Source: a virus
DNA: 64,000 nucleotides
Virus genome (UHGV): UHGV-0236300
Direction: 5' to 3' (one strand)
Shown: piece after piece, positions 16,035 through 58,583 of the stretch
Layout: each line of letters opens with the position of its first letter
Numbering within the stretch: position 1 is the stretch's first letter
Notes under the pieces: generated by a model
What the model was told of the DNA's origin: nothing
Databases searched by the model: none
What the model saw: only the letters and a program-made list of their open reading frames with translations
Program-made: the position numbers and the translations under genes

Positions 16035-16224
16035 GCTTAAATCTGCATGGAACATTGCTGTGGGTGATGAGATCCGCATCCCTGGTGGGAAGACCGTTAT
16101 GAAGATATCTCGTATTGAATACGAAGGCGACCGTGTATTCCACATCTTTGCAGAAGATGGTCGGGAAATTTATGTACAAGCGGGCTCTCACATCTATATC
16201 CGTAAGAAAGGGGATGACAAATGA
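16027..16224 (+). CDS. hypothetical protein
   Basis: ATG 16027 after AAGGAGGG. Confidence 0.45.
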   Translation: MFKLKSAWNIAVGDEIRIPGGKTVMKISRIEYEGDRVFHIFAEDGREIYVQAGSHIYIRKKGDDK

Positions 16225-16550
16225 CAGAGATCATTATTTCAACTGCAGGGTATGTATTCCTGACAATCATTGCTCTGACCATTTTGGTGGCGGTATATGG
16301 ATTTGTTATTCTACCTATTCTTGAGACAATTAGTTTGTGTCGGTGTTGGAGAAAGGCTTACGGTCCACAGCCGTGGAGGGACTGGCCCCACCTGGTTCGC
16401 ATAGCGTTCTCTTATGCTTATGATCACGCCAGCAGTGCATGCATAACCGGGTATCACGCTCACAATTGGAACTGGGAGGGGTTGGGTAGATGGAATGTTA
16501 TAAAGACCATACCTCTACGTATGCACAAGCCTAAAAACAAAGACAGTTGA
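16221..16550 (+). CDS. hypothetical membrane protein
   Basis: ATGA-coupled; N-terminal hydrophobic helix YVFLTIIALTILVAVYGFVILPIL. Confidence 0.5.
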   Translation: MTEIIISTAGYVFLTIIALTILVAVYGFVILPILETISLCRCWRKAYGPQPWRDWPHLVRIAFSYAYDHASSACITGYHAHNWNWEGLGRWNVIKTIPLRMHKPKNKDS

Positions 16551-19874: not shown

Positions 19875-19949
19875 TTATTTTTTCGGTGGTCCTGGCTGCA
19901 GGGCCATCTATAAAGATAATTTATTAACACCATGAAAGGAGAAAGTAAC

Positions 19950-20303
19950 ATGATCAGCGGTGCAAGTTTTATCATTGGCGCTATTGCTACGGCTTTAATT
20001 GTAAACAAGATCCAGGATAAAAAGGAAAGAGGAAGCACCGCCCTTGCAGAATATCCATTTTGGGCATTCAACGATAACGAAGATTATATTATAAAGTATA
20101 AAAATAAAGAAGGTGACCAAGTAACACCGCGACCGATCCCGGCTTACAAGATGCAGGAAACACTATACCGCCTGGAGGCGGGGGGCGCAAAAATTGTGGA
20201 CTTTTGGGGATACGATCACACAGATCAGGAAGTTATAAAGCGCCGTATCCGGGCTATTCAGGCCAATATTGAAGTTAGCAAGGGGGGAATATATGAAGAT
20301 TAA
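19950..20303 (+). CDS. hypothetical membrane-anchored protein
   Basis: ATG 19950 after AAAGGAGAAAG; N-terminal hydrophobic segment. Confidence 0.5.
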   Translation: MISGASFIIGAIATALIVNKIQDKKERGSTALAEYPFWAFNDNEDYIIKYKNKEGDQVTPRPIPAYKMQETLYRLEAGGAKIVDFWGYDHTDQEVIKRRIRAIQANIEVSKGGIYED

Positions 20304-25329: not shown

Positions 25330-26133
25330 GAAATCTCCTCTGGAAATGAGAGTGTGAACAGGGTTTATACGTTCCAATACGCTGGAATTATGCACGTTTG
25401 CCTCTTCAGGCCATGCTTTAGCATGATAAACTTATGTGGGCTCGGTGCTTCATAGTCTCCCACCTCTGAACTCTTCGTGCTCGGGCATAATAGAGAACCA
25501 GATGGCTATGATATCTTCCCACGTTAGGTCATCAGCCTCAGGATCCACCTGGGACGGAGATAGAGAATCCTCAGAATTGAAGTTTTCCTCTATCACTCCT
25601 TCAGATGTCTCTGTAGATGCATGTGTGTTGGTCATGTTCCACCCGTGAGTATTCCGGCAACATGTTTAAAAAATAAGACTTTATCAACATATGGCCGGAA
25701 CGTGTCGATGCCATAAGCATATTCCTGCAACAGCCGCTATGGACGTAATGATCATCAGGATCACCACTAAAACCTCTGACAATGTTTTCATTGTGTATTC
25801 CATATTATCCAAACAATGTGTGGATACTATCACAGGGGCGGTAATGTGTCAACAGAAGCGCCGCGAGGGTTTGGTTAAAATCCGAGCGTATGGTGATTTG
25901 GGTCAAAACGGGCGTGCGTTCTCGCTACGCTCGAAATAGAGAGTTGTTTGTAGGATGACTTTAAACGCTCTGTAAGGAGATTAATTGTCTAAGGTATGGA
26001 ATCGTGCACCAGATAAAGAAAAGGACGCCACAGAGCGTCCTAGGTGCCTTAAATTTGATATTTTGCTATACCCATGAGGGCTTGTCTAGGTTGGAGTAAC
26101 TGAAGGGGGTCAAAAGGTGACTGTCAAAATCTT

Positions 26134-27086: not shown

Positions 27087-27338
27087 TTAACGTTCTACAA
27101 AAATACCGTTCAGTTCAATAACCAGGAATTTCTGGTCTTCACTATCGTCACGTGCCAGCACCTCACAGACGTAACGGTCATCTCCGTCATCATCACAGTC
27201 AAACACAAGGCTGAGGACTTTATCATGATAAACCTTCGCCACTACCGCCTCGTAAGTGTTGCCGATTGTGAATCCAAGATAATCCCCGATGCATTTGACA
27301 ACAACATGGTCGCCAGCATTTAAGTCAATCTTCGTCAT
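27087..27338 (-). CDS. hypothetical protein
   Basis: ATG after AAGGAGC. Confidence 0.45.
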   Translation of the reverse strand: MTKIDLNAGDHVVVKCIGDYLGFTIGNTYEAVVAKVYHDKVLSLVFDCDDDGDDRYVCEVLARDDSEDQKFLVIELNGIFVER

Positions 27339-27493
27339 TACTGTGCTCCTTGGGTGATAATACGGTATGTAAAACTCTAACCAGAGATGTGAATAACGCC
27401 CCAAAACACACCGATAGCGCTAAAACAGATAAGGCCATCATTAAAGCTTCAGTAAAATCAGTCATTCCTCACCTCTTGTTAGTCACTATACTA

Positions 27494-27757
27494 TTATTTA
27501 TCTTTGCCGTCAAGAACTTTTTTAAATCTCTCAGGAATATCTCCTGTTCTTAGATAGTTCATGACCTCACAAGGTTCCCACTTAAACTTCTTGCACAGCA
27601 GAGCGGCTGAGATTGTCTCATTGCGAAAAGAAAGGATATCAATATCCCACTCTGAGAACCCTAATTTCCGAAGAGTGGCTATAGAAATCCTCACAGCAAC
27701 CCAACAAGAGAGGCACGCAACAAACGCCACTGCCACAACCCACACCAAGATGTTCAT
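27494..27757 (-). CDS. hypothetical membrane protein
   Basis: ATG after AAGGGG; N-terminal hydrophobic helix. Confidence 0.4.
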   Translation of the reverse strand: MNILVWVVAVAFVACLSCWVAVRISIATLRKLGFSEWDIDILSFRNETISAALLCKKFKWEPCEVMNYLRTGDIPERFKKVLDGKDK

Positions 27758-27845
27758 ACAGCCCCTTAATGAAATACAAGACATAGTGCCAAGGTCACTA
27801 TTCAGCAAATAATTAACAGTGCCGTTGCAACCTTGGCAAGATTTA

Positions 27846-34456: not shown

Positions 34457-34638
34457 CCCTCATCGCACGTCTGATATAGCCATTCTATGAAATCTTGATA
34501 CCACTCTCCCTCTGAGCGCTCCGTAGGCCAATAATCTTCCCCCTCTCTTGCATTAAAATCTGAGTATTCAACTTTCCACTCCTTTACCAGCTCGTGGAGA
34601 AGGTTTTCAGCCTGTTCTAAGGATTTATTTTTTGTCAT
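34453..34638 (-). CDS. hypothetical protein
   Basis: ATG after AAAAGGGGA; TAATG coupling with upstream small ORF. Confidence 0.45.
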   Translation of the reverse strand: MTKNKSLEQAENLLHELVKEWKVEYSDFNAREGEDYWPTERSEGEWYQDFIEWLYQTCDEG

Positions 34639-34744
34639 TACTGTCCCCTTTTTCAAGATAATTATACATCAGCGCCGCACCACCCAAAATGGCTACCAGC
34701 AGTAATACCCCAGAGAGCATTTCAATAAACATGGCTTGAAACAT
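34625..34744 (-). CDS. small hydrophobic peptide (39 aa)
   Basis: RBS AGAGGGGG; MFQAMFIEMLSGVLLLVAILGGAALMYNYLEKGDSNDKK. Confidence 0.3.
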   Translation of the reverse strand: MFQAMFIEMLSGVLLLVAILGGAALMYNYLEKGDSNDKK

Positions 34745-34875
34745 TAGAAGGCCCCCTCTAATTTCACGCACCATTTTAAATACATATTCTTTTCCCATAA
34801 AGGTGCCCGGCTAAGATCTGTGTAGAACGCAATCTCTTTAAGAACAGTATAAACAGTTTTAGGTGCGGTATCCAT
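34744..34875 (-). CDS. small protein (43 aa)
   Basis: RBS AAGGAGAG; TAATG overlap with next ORF. Confidence 0.3.
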   Translation of the reverse strand: MDTAPKTVYTVLKEIAFYTDLSRAPLWEKNMYLKWCVKLEGAF

Positions 34876-35095
34876 CCCTACTCTCCTTTTTCTCCTTACG
34901 GGTATTCTTGTAGTAATCAACCAGACACATTATTACGATGAAGACAACCACAGGCCAAAAAGGTGCAGCAGTGATGATGGTGATAAAATCATCAAACTTC
35001 ACCCTTCGTGTAGACACGATGCATATACCTGTCAAGATTACTGCTGTTATAACAGCTACTACTAGGTAACCTATTAGCACAGCATTTATACTCAT
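34859..35095 (-). CDS. small membrane protein with two TM helices and charged C-terminus (holin-like topology)
   Basis: RBS GAAGGAGG; two hydrophobic segments then KNTRKEKKESRDGYRT. Confidence 0.5.
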   Translation of the reverse strand: MSINAVLIGYLVVAVITAVILTGICIVSTRRVKFDDFITIITAAPFWPVVVFIVIMCLVDYYKNTRKEKKESRDGYRT

Positions 35096-35113: not shown

Positions 35114-35650
35114 TTAAATTGTGCACTTCAGGTGGTTGTCGATGGTGTCAAGAAAATTATCCCGTTCTTTCTCAGAGTTTTCACGGATGTAGCTGAAAAA
35201 CATATCTAGAATAACCTTATTGATATATTCCAACTCCTCTGTGTTCAAGTACTTAGCAGGATCTACAATGACATCCCAAGTATCATACAGACCGCACTCA
35301 TGATACCCCCAACGCCGCTCAATTGTCAAACTGATCGGCAAATCTTTACCGTCACAAACAACCCTCCATCTACAGATACTGGTATCTGGGCGTACCTGTG
35401 CACGGTATACCTGTACAAAATCCAATTTGAATTTGAGGTACTCGTCATACAATTTAAGCACAAAGCTCTCGATTTGTGGAGACACTTTTGCAGCAAACTG
35501 TGCGTATTTGTACTTGCACTGGATGATCTTTCTGCGTTTTGCAGTTAAATTTTTTGCAGCCAGTTGTTCTTCAGTGTACCTCCACCTACGATCAACAAAC
35601 GCAACAGGGTCTTTGTCCCCATAGAGGTCTTCCCAGTTAATCAGAAGCAT
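35114..35650 (-). CDS. hypothetical protein
   Basis: ATG after GGAGGAG. Confidence 0.5.
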   Translation of the reverse strand: MLLINWEDLYGDKDPVAFVDRRWRYTEEQLAAKNLTAKRRKIIQCKYKYAQFAAKVSPQIESFVLKLYDEYLKFKLDFVQVYRAQVRPDTSICRWRVVCDGKDLPISLTIERRWGYHECGLYDTWDVIVDPAKYLNTEELEYINKVILDMFFSYIRENSEKERDNFLDTIDNHLKCTI

Positions 35651-35655
35651 ACCTG

Positions 35656-35889
35656 TCACTCCTCCACAACTTCAAGGCCTTTACCGCCTCGCTCTGGCAG
35701 ATTGCCTAAAGATAGGTAATACGTATAATCAGGAGAGATCCTACCAGACTCTGCACCTGCAGCTAGTAAATATTTTCCCTTAACCATGACAACATTATCG
35801 TTTGCAGATAGCCGTTTTGCTTCCACAATTTTACCAACGCAGTCAACCAAGGAAGGGTACCCTAAATCTGTAAGAAATTTAACTTTCAT
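35656..35889 (-). CDS. hypothetical protein (MKVK / LAAGA family)
   Basis: RBS GTAGGAGG; MKVKFLTD... KYLLAAGAES ... LEVVEE. Confidence 0.5.
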   Translation of the reverse strand: MKVKFLTDLGYPSLVDCVGKIVEAKRLSANDNVVMVKGKYLLAAGAESGRISPDYTYYLSLGNLPERGGKGLEVVEE

Positions 35890-40338: not shown

Positions 40339-40812
40339 TTAGTCAACCTGAACCCAACCGCCTGCTACCTTTTTAAACATTCTTTGGTTATCGCTGCCTC
40401 GGAATGGTTTCTTTGTTGGTAAATCTTTTACATACTTTCCATCAATGACGATATCAGCCAGTTTAAGAACATCACTAGAGATATGCTCAAATGTGAACCC
40501 AGTATACACAAGAATAGTTTTCTTGTCACCAAACTTTTCCTTAATTCTCCTCATAAGGTCTATAATACCTGGCTCATTATAAGGAGCCAAAGGCTCTCCA
40601 CCAAGTAAAGAAATACCGCATACAGATTCATTGTCTAAATCCGACAAAATTTTCTGCAAATCTTCTTCGGTGAACTCCCTTCCTTTATCTTTTGACCAAA
40701 ATGCTTGATTAAAGCAACCAGGACAAGCGTGTGGGCACCCAGATACCCACAAAGCTGTCCTAATGCCTGGCCCCTCGGTGTAAGATATCTCTGTATACCC
40801 GACAATATTCAT
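40339..40812 (-). CDS. nrdG: anaerobic ribonucleotide reductase activating protein (radical SAM)
   Basis: CPHACPGC cysteine cluster; T4 NrdG-like length; start taken at MNIVGY. Confidence 0.8.
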   Translation of the reverse strand: MNIVGYTEISYTEGPGIRTALWVSGCPHACPGCFNQAFWSKDKGREFTEEDLQKILSDLDNESVCGISLLGGEPLAPYNEPGIIDLMRRIKEKFGDKKTILVYTGFTFEHISSDVLKLADIVIDGKYVKDLPTKKPFRGSDNQRMFKKVAGGWVQVD

Positions 40813-40925
40813 ACGTACTCCGCATCGCATTTAGGACAATGCCAAATAAAATCGTCCAGTGCCTTACACCAACGAAGATTGCAATGACAACCACACTTGC
40901 AAATTTTATAAATACCTGTAGACAT
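40809..40925 (-). CDS. small Cys-rich zinc-ribbon protein (38 aa) between nrdD and nrdG
   Basis: RBS AGGAGG 6 nt before ATG; MSTGIYKICKCGCHCNLRWCKALDDFIWHCPKCDAEYV; stop overlaps nrdG start (ATGA). Confidence 0.5.
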   Translation of the reverse strand: MSTGIYKICKCGCHCNLRWCKALDDFIWHCPKCDAEYV

Positions 40926-40988
40926 ATTGCACCTCCTAGTTTACTGTGTGACAACAATATGCCACATCCTTGTGACTTTTGTCAAGTA

Positions 40989-55677: not shown

Positions 55678-55968
55678 TCAAGACTTTTTAGTCTTTCTTG
55701 GAGAGCCTTTTGTTGATCTTTTCCTTTTGTGGTAGATTCCAAGTGCGGCGTTTTCTTGGGCGCACGTTTTAACAGTTCTCAGACAAGAACTTTCAGCTTT
55801 AGGCAGGTTTAACTCCCACCAACCAAGCCAGTAAAGTTCTGATTCAGACAATTGCTCAGATTCAGCCTTCCGATACAATGATTGCATACCTCTGATAATG
55901 TCGTCCAGAGGCGTATCAAATACAAAAGCTGTCTTATCGAATTTCTCTTTTACAGGTTTCTTAGCCAT
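55678..55968 (-). CDS. hypothetical basic protein
   Basis: RBS GAGGGT. Confidence 0.45.
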   Translation of the reverse strand: MAKKPVKEKFDKTAFVFDTPLDDIIRGMQSLYRKAESEQLSESELYWLGWWELNLPKAESSCLRTVKTCAQENAALGIYHKRKRSTKGSPRKTKKS

Positions 55969-56425
55969 CAAGGTAACCCTCTATCCACGAAAAGTCAGTC
56001 TTCCATTCCGGAACTTTACTAAGCTCACGCCACTCTGCAAAGCAGTCTCGGTAATACGCCTCTGCCATACCCTTGGTGATCTTATTCACCTTAGCCAACT
56101 GATTAACTGCCTGAGCATACTTTCCACGGATATTTGCTAACCCAGGATGCACCGATGTGTGACAATCTGGGCACAACGCTATCAGTCCGACAAGCCGGAT
56201 CACTCCCTCTTCGAAAGTGTAAAGTTCATGACACTCCACCGGATGTTTGCTGCCTTTACCGCCGCACACCTCACAAGTATAGTTGGCTTCTCTGTAGCAC
56301 TTCTTACGGATCTTATCCCACTCACTCTTCTTCACAGCGTTTCGGAGATTATTATACCAAGCTGTCTCTGGGATCAGCTGTACAATAAGCCTGCGTTCAG
56401 ACTTCATTAAACGTCCGTCTTCCAC
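55961..56425 (-). CDS. HNH-family endonuclease (free-standing)
   Basis: CEVCGGKGSKHPVECHELY ... LCPDCH (paired Cys plus His/Asn). Confidence 0.55.
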   Translation of the reverse strand: MEDGRLMKSERRLIVQLIPETAWYNNLRNAVKKSEWDKIRKKCYREANYTCEVCGGKGSKHPVECHELYTFEEGVIRLVGLIALCPDCHTSVHPGLANIRGKYAQAVNQLAKVNKITKGMAEAYYRDCFAEWRELSKVPEWKTDFSWIEGYLDG

Positions 56426-56434
56426 GTATCCTCC

Positions 56435-56641
56435 TCATTCAAAGAAATGGGTGCGAGGGCAGGAACCTGCCTCGCCTTGTTTCACAAGCTCGTAGAGCTC
56501 ACCTTGGCTTGTCTCATAAAGGCAAATACGTTTACCATTGTCCCGATATACATCCACAAGATACGCTGTTTCACCTGCAAACACGACACCACAGGCAAGG
56601 CATGCTGCCATGAACAAAATTGCCAACAGAAAATCTTTCAT
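56435..56641 (-). CDS. small lipoprotein (signal peptide plus lipobox)
   Basis: MKDFLLAILFMAACLACG with L-A-C lipobox; RBS AGAGGGT. Confidence 0.55.
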   Translation of the reverse strand: MKDFLLAILFMAACLACGVVFAGETAYLVDVYRDNGKRICLYETSQGELYELVKQGEAGSCPRTHFFE

Positions 56642-56704
56642 GGTTAAACCCTCTTGAGTACTTTATGAGGTAACAATACCACATCCATGTGGTCATGTCA
56701 ATGA

Positions 56705-57175
56705 CTAATCTAGGACAACACCGCCTGACTTTTTAAACACCTCGATCAACTTTTCGATCTTCTGTTCGTGCTGACCATACCCTGCACCAGGAAGGCTTGC
56801 CCATCGGGATCTGCAAAGATGGATGGCCTGATGAATACGACCTTCATCAATATCATCGAGCGCCTTGCACTCACGGATCAATTGTAGTGCGATCTTATCC
56901 TGACTGGCAGGGCCAAAATCTGGTAATCCTAACTGTTTCATATAGTGTTTAGCAAACTTCTCCAAAACTTGGTAGCGACCCGCAGCAGAGGAGGTAAGTT
57001 TAGCATTTAGCTTAACGTACACACCTGGATGCTTACTGTAATCGCTAAACAGCTTGCCACCGACTATGACATCATAGCCACGATCCTTGGTAGGTTGTCT
57101 ACCATTATCTGTGCCTTCTGAATATGCGATCATATCCAAGAAAGCTTTTCGTTGAACATTTTTATCAAGTTTCAT
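56705..57175 (-). CDS. endolysin, lambda R-type lytic transglycosylase
   Basis: RKAFLDM.A.SEGTDNGRQ...GYDVIVGG...WASLPGAGYGQ, estimated ~65% identical to lambda R from memory; RBS GGAGAG. Confidence 0.9.
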   Translation of the reverse strand: MKLDKNVQRKAFLDMIAYSEGTDNGRQPTKDRGYDVIVGGKLFSDYSKHPGVYVKLNAKLTSSAAGRYQVLEKFAKHYMKQLGLPDFGPASQDKIALQLIRECKALDDIDEGRIHQAIHLCRSRWASLPGAGYGQHEQKIEKLIEVFKKSGGVVLD

Positions 57176-57299
57176 TTTTCATACTCTCCAGTTTACTCAT
57201 AACTAACCAGATCAACAACACTGCATAATGTGGTTATGCAGGGGCCAATTGAAAAACCATCATTCAATTGGCTACCGTTATCTACTGAACATCCCTACA

Positions 57300-58583
57300 T
57301 TATTCCAGCACCTCCCAAGTGTCTGGGTTAACATTTCGGACACAGATGCCGACAGGGAATTGGTAGTTGTTGTCTTCTGTCCTTGCTTGATATTTGAAGG
57401 TGACAAACTTGCCGATCATTTCCTGCATCCTGTCATAGCTGCGCTCCTCGTGCGTACCTTTCATCTTCATTTTAACAACGATACCTTCCTTGTCAACACA
57501 GATAAGAACACCTTCATCATTCTTATCTTTCTCAACGTCAATAACTTTCACCTCAGCATCGTTGAACTTTTTCCATTTCAATGCTTCGGATGTTCGCTGA
57601 CCGTATTCGTATTTACCACAGAAGTTACGCATGATAGTACCTTCATATCCTTCGGACATGAATACACCAACAGATTCTTCGCAATGATCAACTGTGTACG
57701 CAAGCTCTGCGTCAACAACCTTGATATTGTCAAGCATCAGAGTGGCAATGGTATCTTCTGCATCCATGAGATCCTTGCATCGTCCAGATTCTGTTTCCGG
57801 ATCCCACCATACCTTGTCACTAGGGATGTCGAAAATATGATACTCTAAGTCATAGCTACAGTACCCTCCGTAACGCAAATCATCACGAACAGGCTCAACA
57901 TCAACAGGAATATCTACCTTATTGAAGTTTTTGTATGTTGATAAGCCTGCCTTAATTGCGGCATGACGGCGTTTTTTATCTGCCTCGTAGTCTTTATCGA
58001 TCTCGGCCTGAATCTCTTCCTGTGTGCGCCACCGTTTAGCAAGAGACACTATTTTCTGCAGAGGCAGACCATGAATATAGATCTCTCCGTCGAGCTGTTT
58101 AATCCCGGTGGTGAAGTGGAAAGAACGAAGTTGCTCCAGAAGCTTTCCTTGAATAGGGTAGGACTTATTACCACGGGAAATAAATTTAGGCTCACCGTTT
58201 TGGAAAACAACCAGTAGACGAAGGCCATCTAACTTACGCAAGATCCAGCAAGGCAATTTAAGTGCCTTTCCACGCTTCAGGTAGTCATGCACCAGCATGG
58301 GTAAAAGGTCAACACCCTGCTCGCAATCTTCCATATTTTCAACATACCCCAGACGGACTTGTTTTTCCCACTTACTGATCGCTTCCAGCTCAGCCTGTTG
58401 CTCAGCTGTAGTTTCATTGGCACGACCCACGTTCTTAGGTGTGCAGATCGTCTCTTTGTATTGCAGTTTACCATCAAGCTTGCCAAACTCTACGATAACC
58501 TTATCACCATCCGTGAATACTTTCCACTGTTGGTAGCTGCCATCTTTGTTCAGTGCGTACAGTGTTGTTTTAATCTGATGCAT
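57300..58583 (-). CDS. ATP-dependent DNA ligase
   Basis: Adenylation motif I KLDGLR; RBS AGGAAGAGG. Confidence 0.6.
   Translation of the reverse strand: MHQIKTTLYALNKDGSYQQWKVFTDGDKVIVEFGKLDGKLQYKETICTPKNVGRANETTAEQQAELEAISKWEKQVRLGYVENMEDCEQGVDLLPMLVHDYLKRGKALKLPCWILRKLDGLRLLVVFQNGEPKFISRGNKSYPIQGKLLEQLRSFHFTTGIKQLDGEIYIHGLPLQKIVSLAKRWRTQEEIQAEIDKDYEADKKRRHAAIKAGLSTYKNFNKVDIPVDVEPVRDDLRYGGYCSYDLEYHIFDIPSDKVWWDPETESGRCKDLMDAEDTIATLMLDNIKVVDAELAYTVDHCEESVGVFMSEGYEGTIMRNFCGKYEYGQRTSEALKWKKFNDAEVKVIDVEKDKNDEGVLICVDKEGIVVKMKMKGTHEERSYDRMQEMIGKFVTFKYQARTEDNNYQFPVGICVRNVNPDTWEVLE

What the first reader, a model, noticed from the sequence alone, without database searches (positions are those of the whole stretch)
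56435..57175. Lambda R-type endolysin with no adjacent holin; a lipoprotein gene downstream instead
The endolysin is unambiguous, but the 124-nt upstream gap holds no holin ORF. The downstream gene encodes a 68-aa lipoprotein that is not proline-rich, so it is unlike Rz1. The only holin-like topology nearby is 34859-35095, about 21 kb away. The lysis cassette therefore seems dispersed, or the lipoprotein has another role such as superinfection exclusion.
Basis: partly seen in the sequence, partly recalled or inferred. Interest (0 to 1): 0.4.

Follow-up and report, generated by a model that had tools for sequence, protein, structure and literature searches.

The report
rV5-type phage endolysin plus secreted miniprotein
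This is the ordinary, already published scattered lysis-gene layout of rV5-like E. coli phages; the small gene after the endolysin most likely encodes a separately transcribed secreted periplasmic protein of unknown function, not a lipoprotein.

Summary
The window comes from a Vequintavirus (rV5-like E. coli myophage), 93-98% identical to published genomes. The endolysin call is right. ORF 56705-57175 (-) is a soluble lambda R-type lytic transglycosylase. The 124-nt gap upstream holds no holin-sized ORF.

The scattered lysis genes are not new. The rV5 paper (2013) reported the lysin without a neighbouring holin. It proposed the same 78-aa two-TMD protein (window 34859-35095) as a distant holin. 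The LL12 paper (2019) placed the i- and o-spanin next to the large terminase and could not identify a holin. In the close relative MaxTheCat a canonical, proline-rich spanin pair lies about 10 kb past the endolysin, outside this window.

The lipoprotein reading is not supported. Across about 120 family members the N-terminal cysteines are not conserved. What is conserved is an A-x-A type signal peptide and a 43-48-aa mature domain with two invariant cysteines, under strong purifying selection. The gene has its own sigma-70-like promoter, which stays with it when homing-endonuclease genes separate it from the endolysin. It also occurs in other Vequintavirinae genera that have no R-type endolysin beside it. 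Its function is unknown; an early periplasmic role such as superinfection exclusion is only a guess.

The parts
56705..57175 (-). Endolysin, lambda R-type lytic transglycosylase, 156 aa, soluble (no signal or SAR segment); orthologue of rV5 gp89
   Evidence: 1AM7 E=3e-56 with the catalytic SEGT motif aligned. About 63% identical to lambda R and 97% to phage V5 endolysin. PHROG 90 endolysin. Pfam itself gave no hit at E<=0.01.
56435..56641 (-). Small exported protein, 68 aa: signal peptide about residues 1-22 (predicted cleavage VFA|GE) and a 46-aa mature domain with invariant Cys40 and Cys61; orthologue of rV5 gene 90; PHROG 4641, unknown function
56673..56701 (-). Sigma-70-like promoter of the small gene (TTGACA, 17 nt, TATTGT, with TG upstream of the -10), lying in the 63-nt spacer after the endolysin stop; equals promoter P090 predicted in rV5
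   Evidence: Scan. rV5 Table S4 lists P090 at 72039-72084. The same element is about 60 nt upstream of the small ORF in MaxTheCat, B9-1, CM1, FV3, GAP31, KB57 and L014. Function as a promoter is inferred, not measured.
57176..57299 (-). 124-nt ligase-endolysin spacer: no holin-sized ORF; two inverted repeats (about 57245-57271 and 57221-57241); GGAG ribosome-binding site before the endolysin ATG
   Evidence: Sequence. Terminator-like hit. Spacer nearly invariant across five Vequintavirus genomes. RNA fold not exceptional, z=-1.4. No Rfam match.
57300..58583 (-). ATP-dependent DNA ligase, the upstream neighbour (replication-module context)
   Evidence: Pfam DNA_ligase_A_M and DNA_ligase_OB_2; annotations of relatives.
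55961..56425 (-). HNH homing-endonuclease-like gene, the downstream neighbour; starts 10 nt after the small ORF, behind a GGAGG site
   Evidence: PHROG 5200 HNH endonuclease, 2.4e-72; sequence.
34859..35095 (-). 78-aa two-TMD protein with a Lys/Arg-rich C-terminus: the holin candidate published as rV5 gp129
   Evidence: Hydropathy scan. rV5 paper. PHROG 10061, unknown function. Found only in Vequintavirus, 116 records. Holin function untested.
16221..16550 (+). 109-aa single-TMD protein, the alternative holin candidate (MaxTheCat bas57_0112 'putative holin')
   Evidence: Hydropathy scan. MaxTheCat annotation. PHROG 2531, unknown function. Found only in Vequintavirus, 117 records. Function untested.

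Best explanation
The region holds two functionally separate genes of an rV5-like (Vequintavirus) myophage.

(1) A soluble lambda R-type lytic transglycosylase. It is the endolysin of a lysis system whose parts are scattered over the genome. The spanins sit upstream of the large terminase, outside the window. The holin is elsewhere and still unidentified; the candidates in the window are 34859-35095 and 16221-16550.

(2) A small gene with its own sigma-70-type promoter. Its product is exported by the Sec pathway, most likely cleaved by signal peptidase I after VFA22, and released as a 46-aa disulfide-locked beta-sheet miniprotein in the periplasm.

The small gene belongs to the conserved backbone of the subfamily Vequintavirinae. 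The R-type endolysin sits beside it only in Vequintavirus and one sister lineage, so the adjacency is positional and not a lysis operon.

Shown: the identity of the endolysin, the absence of an adjacent holin, the family-wide signal-peptide architecture, the conserved promoter motif, and the synteny.

Inferred: early transcription by host RNA polymerase, cleavage at residue 22, and the disulfide bond.

Guessed: that the miniprotein acts early in the periplasm as a binder, for example in superinfection exclusion or envelope modulation.

The confidence given applies to the anatomy: an orphan R-type endolysin in a known dispersed lysis system, next to an independent secreted non-lipoprotein gene. 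The guessed function alone would rate about 0.2.
For: - Genome identity: 93-98% to Vequintavirus genomes.
- Endolysin.
- Published dispersal: rV5 lysin gp89 with only gp129 (78 aa, two TMDs) as a distant holin candidate. LL12 has the endolysin, i-spanin and o-spanin identified but no holin. Spanins lie next to TerL in rV5, PVP-SE1 and CB7, and rV5 is listed among the 'separated' spanin families.
- MaxTheCat i-spanin (N-terminal TMD) and o-spanin (lipobox LLCGC, Pro-rich) lie directly before TerL.
- Small protein: the leader cysteines are not conserved. The A-x-A site and two mature-domain cysteines are conserved in 119/119 sequences that could be aligned.
- Purifying selection on the small gene.
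- The promoter motif is conserved even where an HNH gene, not the endolysin, lies upstream (FV3, CM1), and in Seunavirus and Mydovirus. It was predicted independently in rV5 as P090.
- Homologues in GAP31, KB57, P7_Pc and ABPH49 sit in the same MazG...HNH/exonuclease slot without an R-type endolysin. In ABPH49 that enzyme is 13 kb away.
- Distribution: the small ORF is in 193 phage records across several genera, while both holin candidates are confined to about 116 Vequintavirus records.
Against: - The endolysin and the small ORF remain adjacent in a diverged lineage (L014/L015: endolysin 64% and small protein 63% identical) although the flanking genes differ. This could hint at a functional link.
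- In this phage's own sequence, MAAC at residues 11-14 fits the core lipobox pattern (my reading), so signal peptidase II processing in the rV5 clade cannot be excluded without a trained predictor or an experiment.
- The N-terminal hydrophobic stretch here is 19 residues, long for a cleaved leader, so it might stay membrane-anchored.
- Promoter activity and timing are predictions only.
- No evidence bears on the actual function of the miniprotein.
Confidence: 0.7

Rival explanations
1. In the rV5 clade the 68-aa product is a true outer-membrane lipoprotein, lipidated at Cys14. It would act like T5 Llp or T1/phi80 Cor to block a receptor (superinfection exclusion), or act as an unconventional outer-membrane lysis factor.
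For: MAAC at residues 11-14 satisfies the core lipobox pattern, and K2 lies in the n-region (sequence). The variants P0001-P0003 keep M[AT]AC. Small size and two further cysteines recall Llp (my own knowledge, not tested here).
Against: - The cysteine is absent from same-genus orthologues P0005-P0010 and from nearly all of the family.
- Cys14 lies earlier than the usual 15-35 range (my own knowledge of the PROSITE rule).
- Lipidation there would leave nine hydrophobic residues and an intact A-x-A site on the mature protein.
- A canonical o-spanin already exists in relatives.
- No sequence or fold match to any known lipoprotein family.
Confidence: 0.12
2. The small periplasmic protein is a lysis regulator tied to the endolysin or holin. 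It could be an RI-like antiholin that binds the periplasmic part of a holin, or a periplasmic inhibitor that protects against endolysin from neighbouring lysed cells.
For: - It lies directly downstream of the R-type endolysin in Vequintavirus and in the diverged L014/L015 lineage despite different flanks.
- It is periplasmic and probably disulfide-bonded, as T4 RI and Spackle are (my own knowledge).
- rV5-like phages carry rIIA and rIIB.
Against: - It has its own conserved promoter.
- Homing-endonuclease genes sit between it and the endolysin in FV3 and CM1.
- The family is present, in the same slot, in genera whose R-type endolysin is absent from that locus or 13 kb away.
- Both holin candidates have a narrower distribution than the small protein.
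- The window protein has no match to the T4 Spackle Pfam model, and no Pfam match above E=0.06 to anything.
Confidence: 0.15
3. The small ORF is the missing holin: a single-TMD, type II membrane protein.
For: It has one strongly hydrophobic N-terminal segment (Kyte-Doolittle mean 2.74 over residues 4-22). Several records label it 'putative membrane protein'.
Against: - Only three residues precede the hydrophobic segment.
- There is no charged cytoplasmic tail.
- In Seunavirus and Mydovirus homologues the hydrophobic core is about 10-12 residues followed by AFA|T, too short to span a membrane.
- The C-terminal domain is acidic and folds as a beta sheet.
- An early sigma-70-type promoter is atypical for a holin.
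Confidence: 0.03

Closest known systems
Escherichia phage rV5 gp89 (lysin), gene 90 with promoter P090, and gp129 (putative holin), from Kropinski et al. 2013 (PMC3606486)
   Same: Orthologous genes in the same order. The small protein is 100% identical to that of phage V5 and the endolysin 97% identical. The paper draws the same conclusion, that the holin is separated from the lysin 'as in phage T4'.
   Different: Nothing material. This window is another isolate of the same genus. The paper did not analyse the signal peptide of gene 90.
Lambda R lytic transglycosylase (PDB 1AM7, 3D3D)
   Same: Full-length homology, aligned catalytic Glu, same length, soluble.
   Different: Not embedded in an S-R-Rz/Rz1 cassette. 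It sits after a DNA ligase in the replication module, with no adjacent holin or spanin.
Lambda Rz1 and other o-spanins
   Same: A small exported protein encoded near an endolysin.
   Different: No conserved lipobox, one proline in the mature part, and no i-spanin partner beside or around it. The genus already has a canonical spanin pair next to TerL.
T4 Spackle (gp61.3), an early periplasmic inhibitor of the tail lysozyme gp5 that gives superinfection exclusion (PMC7677548)
   Same: A small phage protein with a signal peptide, predicted to be expressed early and exported to the periplasm.
   Different: The window protein has no match to the Pfam T4_Spackle model. One distant family member scores 16.5 bits against a cut-off of 27, mostly over the leader. 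The predicted fold is a beta meander, whereas Spackle is helical (my own knowledge). This is a functional analogy only, untested.
T5 Llp and T1/phi80 Cor superinfection-exclusion lipoproteins
   Same: Small size, export, cysteines in the mature part.
   Different: Those are true lipoproteins encoded next to receptor-binding protein genes. This family lacks a conserved lipobox and lies in the replication module.

Membership tests
Lambda R-type lytic transglycosylase endolysin (GH104) | Full-length sequence homology to lambda R | tested here: met
   1AM7 E=3e-56 over residues 4-154; about 63% identity by tblastn; PHROG 90.
Lambda R-type lytic transglycosylase endolysin (GH104) | Catalytic glutamate in the N-terminal SEGT motif (lambda Glu19) | tested here: met
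   'AYSEGTDNGRQ' aligns with lambda 'AWSEGTDNGRQ'. That Glu19 is the catalytic residue is from my own knowledge.
Lambda R-type lytic transglycosylase endolysin (GH104) | Soluble cytoplasmic enzyme with no signal or SAR segment, hence holin-dependent | tested here: met
   No hydrophobic window passed the threshold in this ORF in the hydropathy scan; sequence.
Lambda R-type lytic transglycosylase endolysin (GH104) | Transglycosylase activity on peptidoglycan | not testable with these tools
   Needs an enzyme assay.
Bacterial lipoprotein (signal peptidase II substrate) | Lipobox [LVI][ASTVI][GAS]C at the end of the h-region | tested here: inconclusive
   In the window protein, MAAC (11-14) fits the core pattern, but the Cys is at position 14 and is followed by nine more hydrophobic residues and an A-x-A site. 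CLAC (14-17) has Cys at -3 (my reading).
Bacterial lipoprotein (signal peptidase II substrate) | The lipidated Cys is conserved among orthologues | tested here: not met
   Replaced by S, M, V or F in P0005-P0010. Lipobox-like 4-mer in 11 of 119 members, any leader Cys in 25 of 119.
o-spanin (Rz1-like) | Outer-membrane lipoprotein signal | tested here: not met
   See the lipoprotein rows.
o-spanin (Rz1-like) | Proline-rich periplasmic domain | tested here: not met
   One Pro in 46 mature residues. In contrast the MaxTheCat o-spanin is Pro-rich.
o-spanin (Rz1-like) | Cognate i-spanin gene embedded, overlapped or adjacent | tested here: not met
   The neighbours are the endolysin and an HNH gene. 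The genus's i-/o-spanin pair lies before TerL.
Holin | At least one membrane-spanning segment retained in the inner membrane, plus a charged cytoplasmic tail | tested here: not met
   For the 68-aa ORF, the hydrophobic segment is a leader with an A-x-A site and is only about 10-12 residues in other genera; the C-terminal part is an acidic beta domain. ORF 34859-35095 does meet these topological criteria, but its function is untested.
T4 Spackle (Pfam PF25676) | Match to the family model above the gathering score | tested here: not met
   The window protein has no hit. The distant member P0139 scores 16.5 bits against a cut-off of 27.
Sec/signal peptidase I secreted protein | n-region with a positive charge, hydrophobic core, and small residues at -3 and -1 | tested here: met
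   K2, then FLLAILFMAACLACGVVFA, then V-F-A|G. After allowing for a one-residue register shift in the GAP31-type sequences, -1 is A, S or G in 119/119 members. This is a rule-based check; no trained predictor was available.

The most novel reading that the evidence does not exclude
The 46-aa disulfide-locked beta miniprotein would be a subfamily-wide, early-expressed periplasmic effector with a fold that has no known relative. One possibility is a Spackle-like inhibitor of the tail lysozyme of superinfecting Vequintavirinae. Another is a binder of a host envelope component. The same mini-domain occurs as tandem C-terminal copies in about 500-aa bacterial proteins carrying MORN and peptidoglycan-binding domains, which would point to a cell-wall-associated target.
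Probability: 0.15. Interest if true: 0.5.

Novelty: already known. Interest (0 to 1): 0.15.

Why it matters
It matters little for the finding as stated. The scattered lysis genes of rV5-like phages, the orphan endolysin and the distant two-TMD holin candidate have been in the literature since 2013.

Two residual points have modest value:
- The holin of this widely used therapeutic and biocontrol phage group is still not identified experimentally. Two different genes are annotated as candidates in different records.
- The gene after the endolysin belongs to an uncharacterised family of small secreted proteins. The family is conserved across Vequintavirinae, is under strong purifying selection and has its own promoter. 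It is a reasonable target for a deletion or exclusion assay. Several database records label it 'putative membrane protein' and one labels it 'lysozyme'; the evidence here does not support either label.

Tried and rejected
- Pfam, NCBIfam, PADLOC and PDB sequence searches of the small protein and its family profile gave no meaningful hit.
- The exhaustive HMM search found only 42 relatives, all unnamed. Two distant members sit on contigs too short to give context.
- I looked for a structured RNA or Rfam family in the conserved 124-nt spacer. There was none, and the fold z-score was -1.4.
- I looked for a holin directly upstream of R-type endolysins in ABPH49 and in L014. The neighbours have no TMD.
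- The MaxTheCat label 'putative glycosidase' for the gene beside the two-TMD candidate (window 35114-35659) has no Pfam or PHROG support. This is therefore not a holin-hydrolase pair.
- The literature search for Vequintavirinae transcriptomics found nothing usable. A search for superinfection exclusion and periplasmic factors in Vequintavirinae, with one candidate paper read, found nothing on this gene.
- I did not attempt an AF2 complex of the endolysin with the miniprotein.

Full report
**What the window is.** The 2.7 kb around the finding matches 124 phage records at 90-98% DNA identity. Nearly all are Vequintavirus, the rV5-like E. coli myophages of about 136 kb. Examples are B9-1 at 98% and MaxTheCat/Bas57 at 94%. 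Gene order is the same as in those genomes, reading the - strand: Sir2-like, MazG-like, two small ORFs, ATP-dependent DNA ligase (57300-58583), endolysin (56705-57175), a 68-aa ORF (56435-56641), an HNH endonuclease (55961-56425), two small ORFs, and a 5'-exonuclease.

**Check of the observation.**
- The endolysin is unambiguous. It aligns with lambda lysozyme 1AM7 over residues 4-154 at E=3e-56, with the SEGT motif conserved. It is about 63% identical to lambda R and 69% to endolysins of Salmonella siphophages.
- It has no hydrophobic N-terminus, so it needs a hole-forming holin.
- The 124-nt gap to the ligase contains no ORF longer than 11 codons on the coding strand.
- The 68-aa ORF is a real gene. 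It differs from MaxTheCat by seven synonymous and no nonsynonymous changes. Against a 74%-identical orthologue the mature part has dN 0.089 and dS about 1.8.

**The dispersal is already published.**
- The rV5 genome paper states that gp89 is the lysin and that no holin homologue was found. It reports that the only protein with two predicted TMDs is the 78-aa gp129 with a Lys/Arg-rich C-terminus, and concludes that the putative holin is separated from the lysin 'as in phage T4' (PMC3606486). That protein is window ORF 34859-35095.
- The spanin survey lists rV5 among the 'separated' two-component spanin families (PMC6139136).
- The CB7 paper notes that in rV5, PVP-SE1 and CB7 the spanin pair lies next to the large terminase and not in a lysis cassette (PMC7344957).
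- In MaxTheCat the pair is annotated at 1-399 and 396-683, directly before TerL. The first product has an N-terminal TMD. The second has a lipobox (LLCGC) and a proline-rich body. On that map the pair lies about 10 kb beyond the endolysin and about 3 kb beyond the end of this window.
- MaxTheCat also labels a different gene as 'putative holin': a 1-TMD protein corresponding to window 16221-16550. The holin is therefore unsettled. Both candidates are confined to the genus, in 116 and 117 records.

**The 68-aa product is most likely not a lipoprotein.**
- Among the close relatives found in the large protein collection, the two cysteines are replaced by S, M, V or F in half of the sequences. The downstream part, from G23 on, is almost invariant.
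- A profile search recovered 234 relatives, all 63-90 aa.
- In the 119 relatives that could be put in register, the leader ends in an A-x-A type site (AFA|T, AHA|S, VFA|G, AWS|G) with A, S or G at -1. Only 11 have a lipobox-like 4-mer and only 25 have any leader cysteine.
- The mature domain is 43-48 residues with two invariant cysteines and the motif L-x-D-x-Y...C-x-Y-S-D-G...G-A-G-x-C-P.
- AlphaFold2 on a 57-sequence alignment gives a leader helix followed by a four-stranded beta meander, mean pLDDT 83.5.
- An exhaustive HMM search adds a few dozen distant small secreted proteins. It also finds tandem C-terminal copies of the domain in about 500-aa proteins with MORN repeats and a PG_binding_1 domain.

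**The small gene is a separate transcription unit.**
- The 63-nt spacer after the endolysin stop holds TTGACA, 17 nt, then TATTGT with an upstream TG. The rV5 authors predicted the same element independently as promoter P090.
- The element lies about 60 nt upstream of the small ORF in MaxTheCat and B9-1. It also does so in FV3 and CM1, where a homing-endonuclease gene, not the endolysin, is the upstream neighbour.
- With other spacer sequences, it is present in Seunavirus GAP31, Mydovirus KB57 and the metagenomic lineage L014. The promoter therefore travels with the small gene.

**The neighbourhood is positional.**
- Homologues of the small gene, 33-42% identical but with the same motif, leader type and cysteines, occupy the same slot between the MazG-like gene and the HNH/exonuclease genes in GAP31, KB57, Pectobacterium phage P7_Pc and ABPH49.
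- In GAP31 and KB57 the upstream gene is an SPFH/Band 7 protein. In P7_Pc the upstream genes are small hypothetical ORFs.
- In ABPH49 the R-type muramidase lies 13 kb away, between glutaredoxin and PhoH.
- The family spans 193 phage records in several genera of Vequintavirinae, wider than either holin candidate.
- One observation points the other way. In the diverged lineage L014/L015 the R-type endolysin (64% identical) still directly precedes the small gene although the ligase is not there. I give a functional link about 15%.

**Most likely mechanism.**
- The endolysin accumulates in the cytoplasm and reaches the wall through a holin encoded elsewhere. The spanin pair next to TerL then disrupts the outer membrane. 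This is standard three-step lysis with scattered genes (family knowledge).
- The small gene is probably read by host RNA polymerase from its own promoter. Its product would be exported by Sec, cleaved after residue 22 and oxidised to a compact periplasmic miniprotein.
- What the miniprotein binds is unknown. An early periplasmic role such as superinfection exclusion is plausible by analogy with T4 Spackle. It rests on location and predicted timing only.

**Verdict.** The endolysin observation is correct but ordinary. The 'dispersed cassette' interpretation is right and already known. The 'lipoprotein' premise is not supported. The remaining open items are the holin and the role of the conserved secreted miniprotein. 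These are modest leads, not surprises.

Noticed in passing
window 57176-57299 (compare L012 2877-3000, L013 2350-2500): The 124-nt ligase-endolysin spacer and the first 10 nt of the endolysin gene are almost invariant across Vequintavirus. This holds even in Shigella phage CM1, whose endolysin protein is only 51% identical. It looks as if the endolysin body was swapped by recombination between conserved flanks. The spacer carries two inverted repeats of unknown role. FV3 has a 28-nt insertion between them.
   Followed up: partly
L013 2982-3665 (FV3) and L012 3553-4314 (CM1): HNH or AP2-type homing-endonuclease genes are inserted between the endolysin and the small ORF in FV3 and CM1. A further HNH gene follows the small ORF in all of them. 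The slot is a hot spot for mobile genes.
   Followed up: partly
window 56680-56693 (-), inside the promoter spacer; L004 and L005 upstream of 3486: The spacer of the small gene's promoter contains a palindrome: CCACATGGATGTGG here and CCACACGGACGTGG in relatives. GAP31 and KB57 have a different inverted repeat (GGCCCG...CGGGCC) across the -10. This could be an operator or a transcript 5' hairpin.
   Followed up: no
P0137, P0141, P0155 (about 500 aa) and P0157 (124 aa): The miniprotein domain occurs as two tandem C-terminal copies in long proteins with MORN repeats and a PG_binding_1 domain, and as two copies in a 124-aa secreted protein. Their source organisms were not determined.
   Followed up: partly
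L004 2532-3422 (GAP31_159) and L005 2533-3423 (KB57_117): In GAP31 the gene upstream of the small ORF is annotated 'lipoprotein' but is an SPFH/Band 7 domain protein (Pfam 2e-21). KB57 carries the same 'lipoprotein' label on the syntenic gene, which I did not test.
   Followed up: partly
window 35114-35659 (-): MaxTheCat calls the orthologue (bas57_0169) 'putative glycosidase'. Pfam finds nothing and PHROG 13467 is 'unknown function'. The two-TMD holin candidate just downstream is therefore not paired with a recognisable hydrolase.
   Followed up: yes
phage records MG0656xx (for example A135, D1, A116): About 19 records named 'Campylobacter phage', with host given as C. jejuni, carry this E. 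coli Vequintavirus region at 95-100% protein identity. The host label looks doubtful.
   Followed up: no
NC_041869.1 67700-67903 (APECc02): The feature listed under the small ORF in this RefSeq record is 'lysozyme' (H25). This is probably a mislabelled or merged annotation.
   Followed up: no
window 16221-16550, 19932-20303 (+); 25684-25833, 27325-27465, 27494-27808, 34625-34798, 40760-40957 (-): Many small single-TMD ORFs lie on the coding strands among the early or hypothetical genes. Any of them could be a membrane effector or a holin-type protein. None has a known family.
   Followed up: no
MaxTheCat record 57768-58268 (outside the window): A 'putative cell wall hydrolase' gene lies directly upstream of rIIA and rIIB in the relative. 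Two virion-associated wall hydrolases are also annotated. The genus thus has several peptidoglycan-active proteins besides the R-type endolysin.
   Followed up: no
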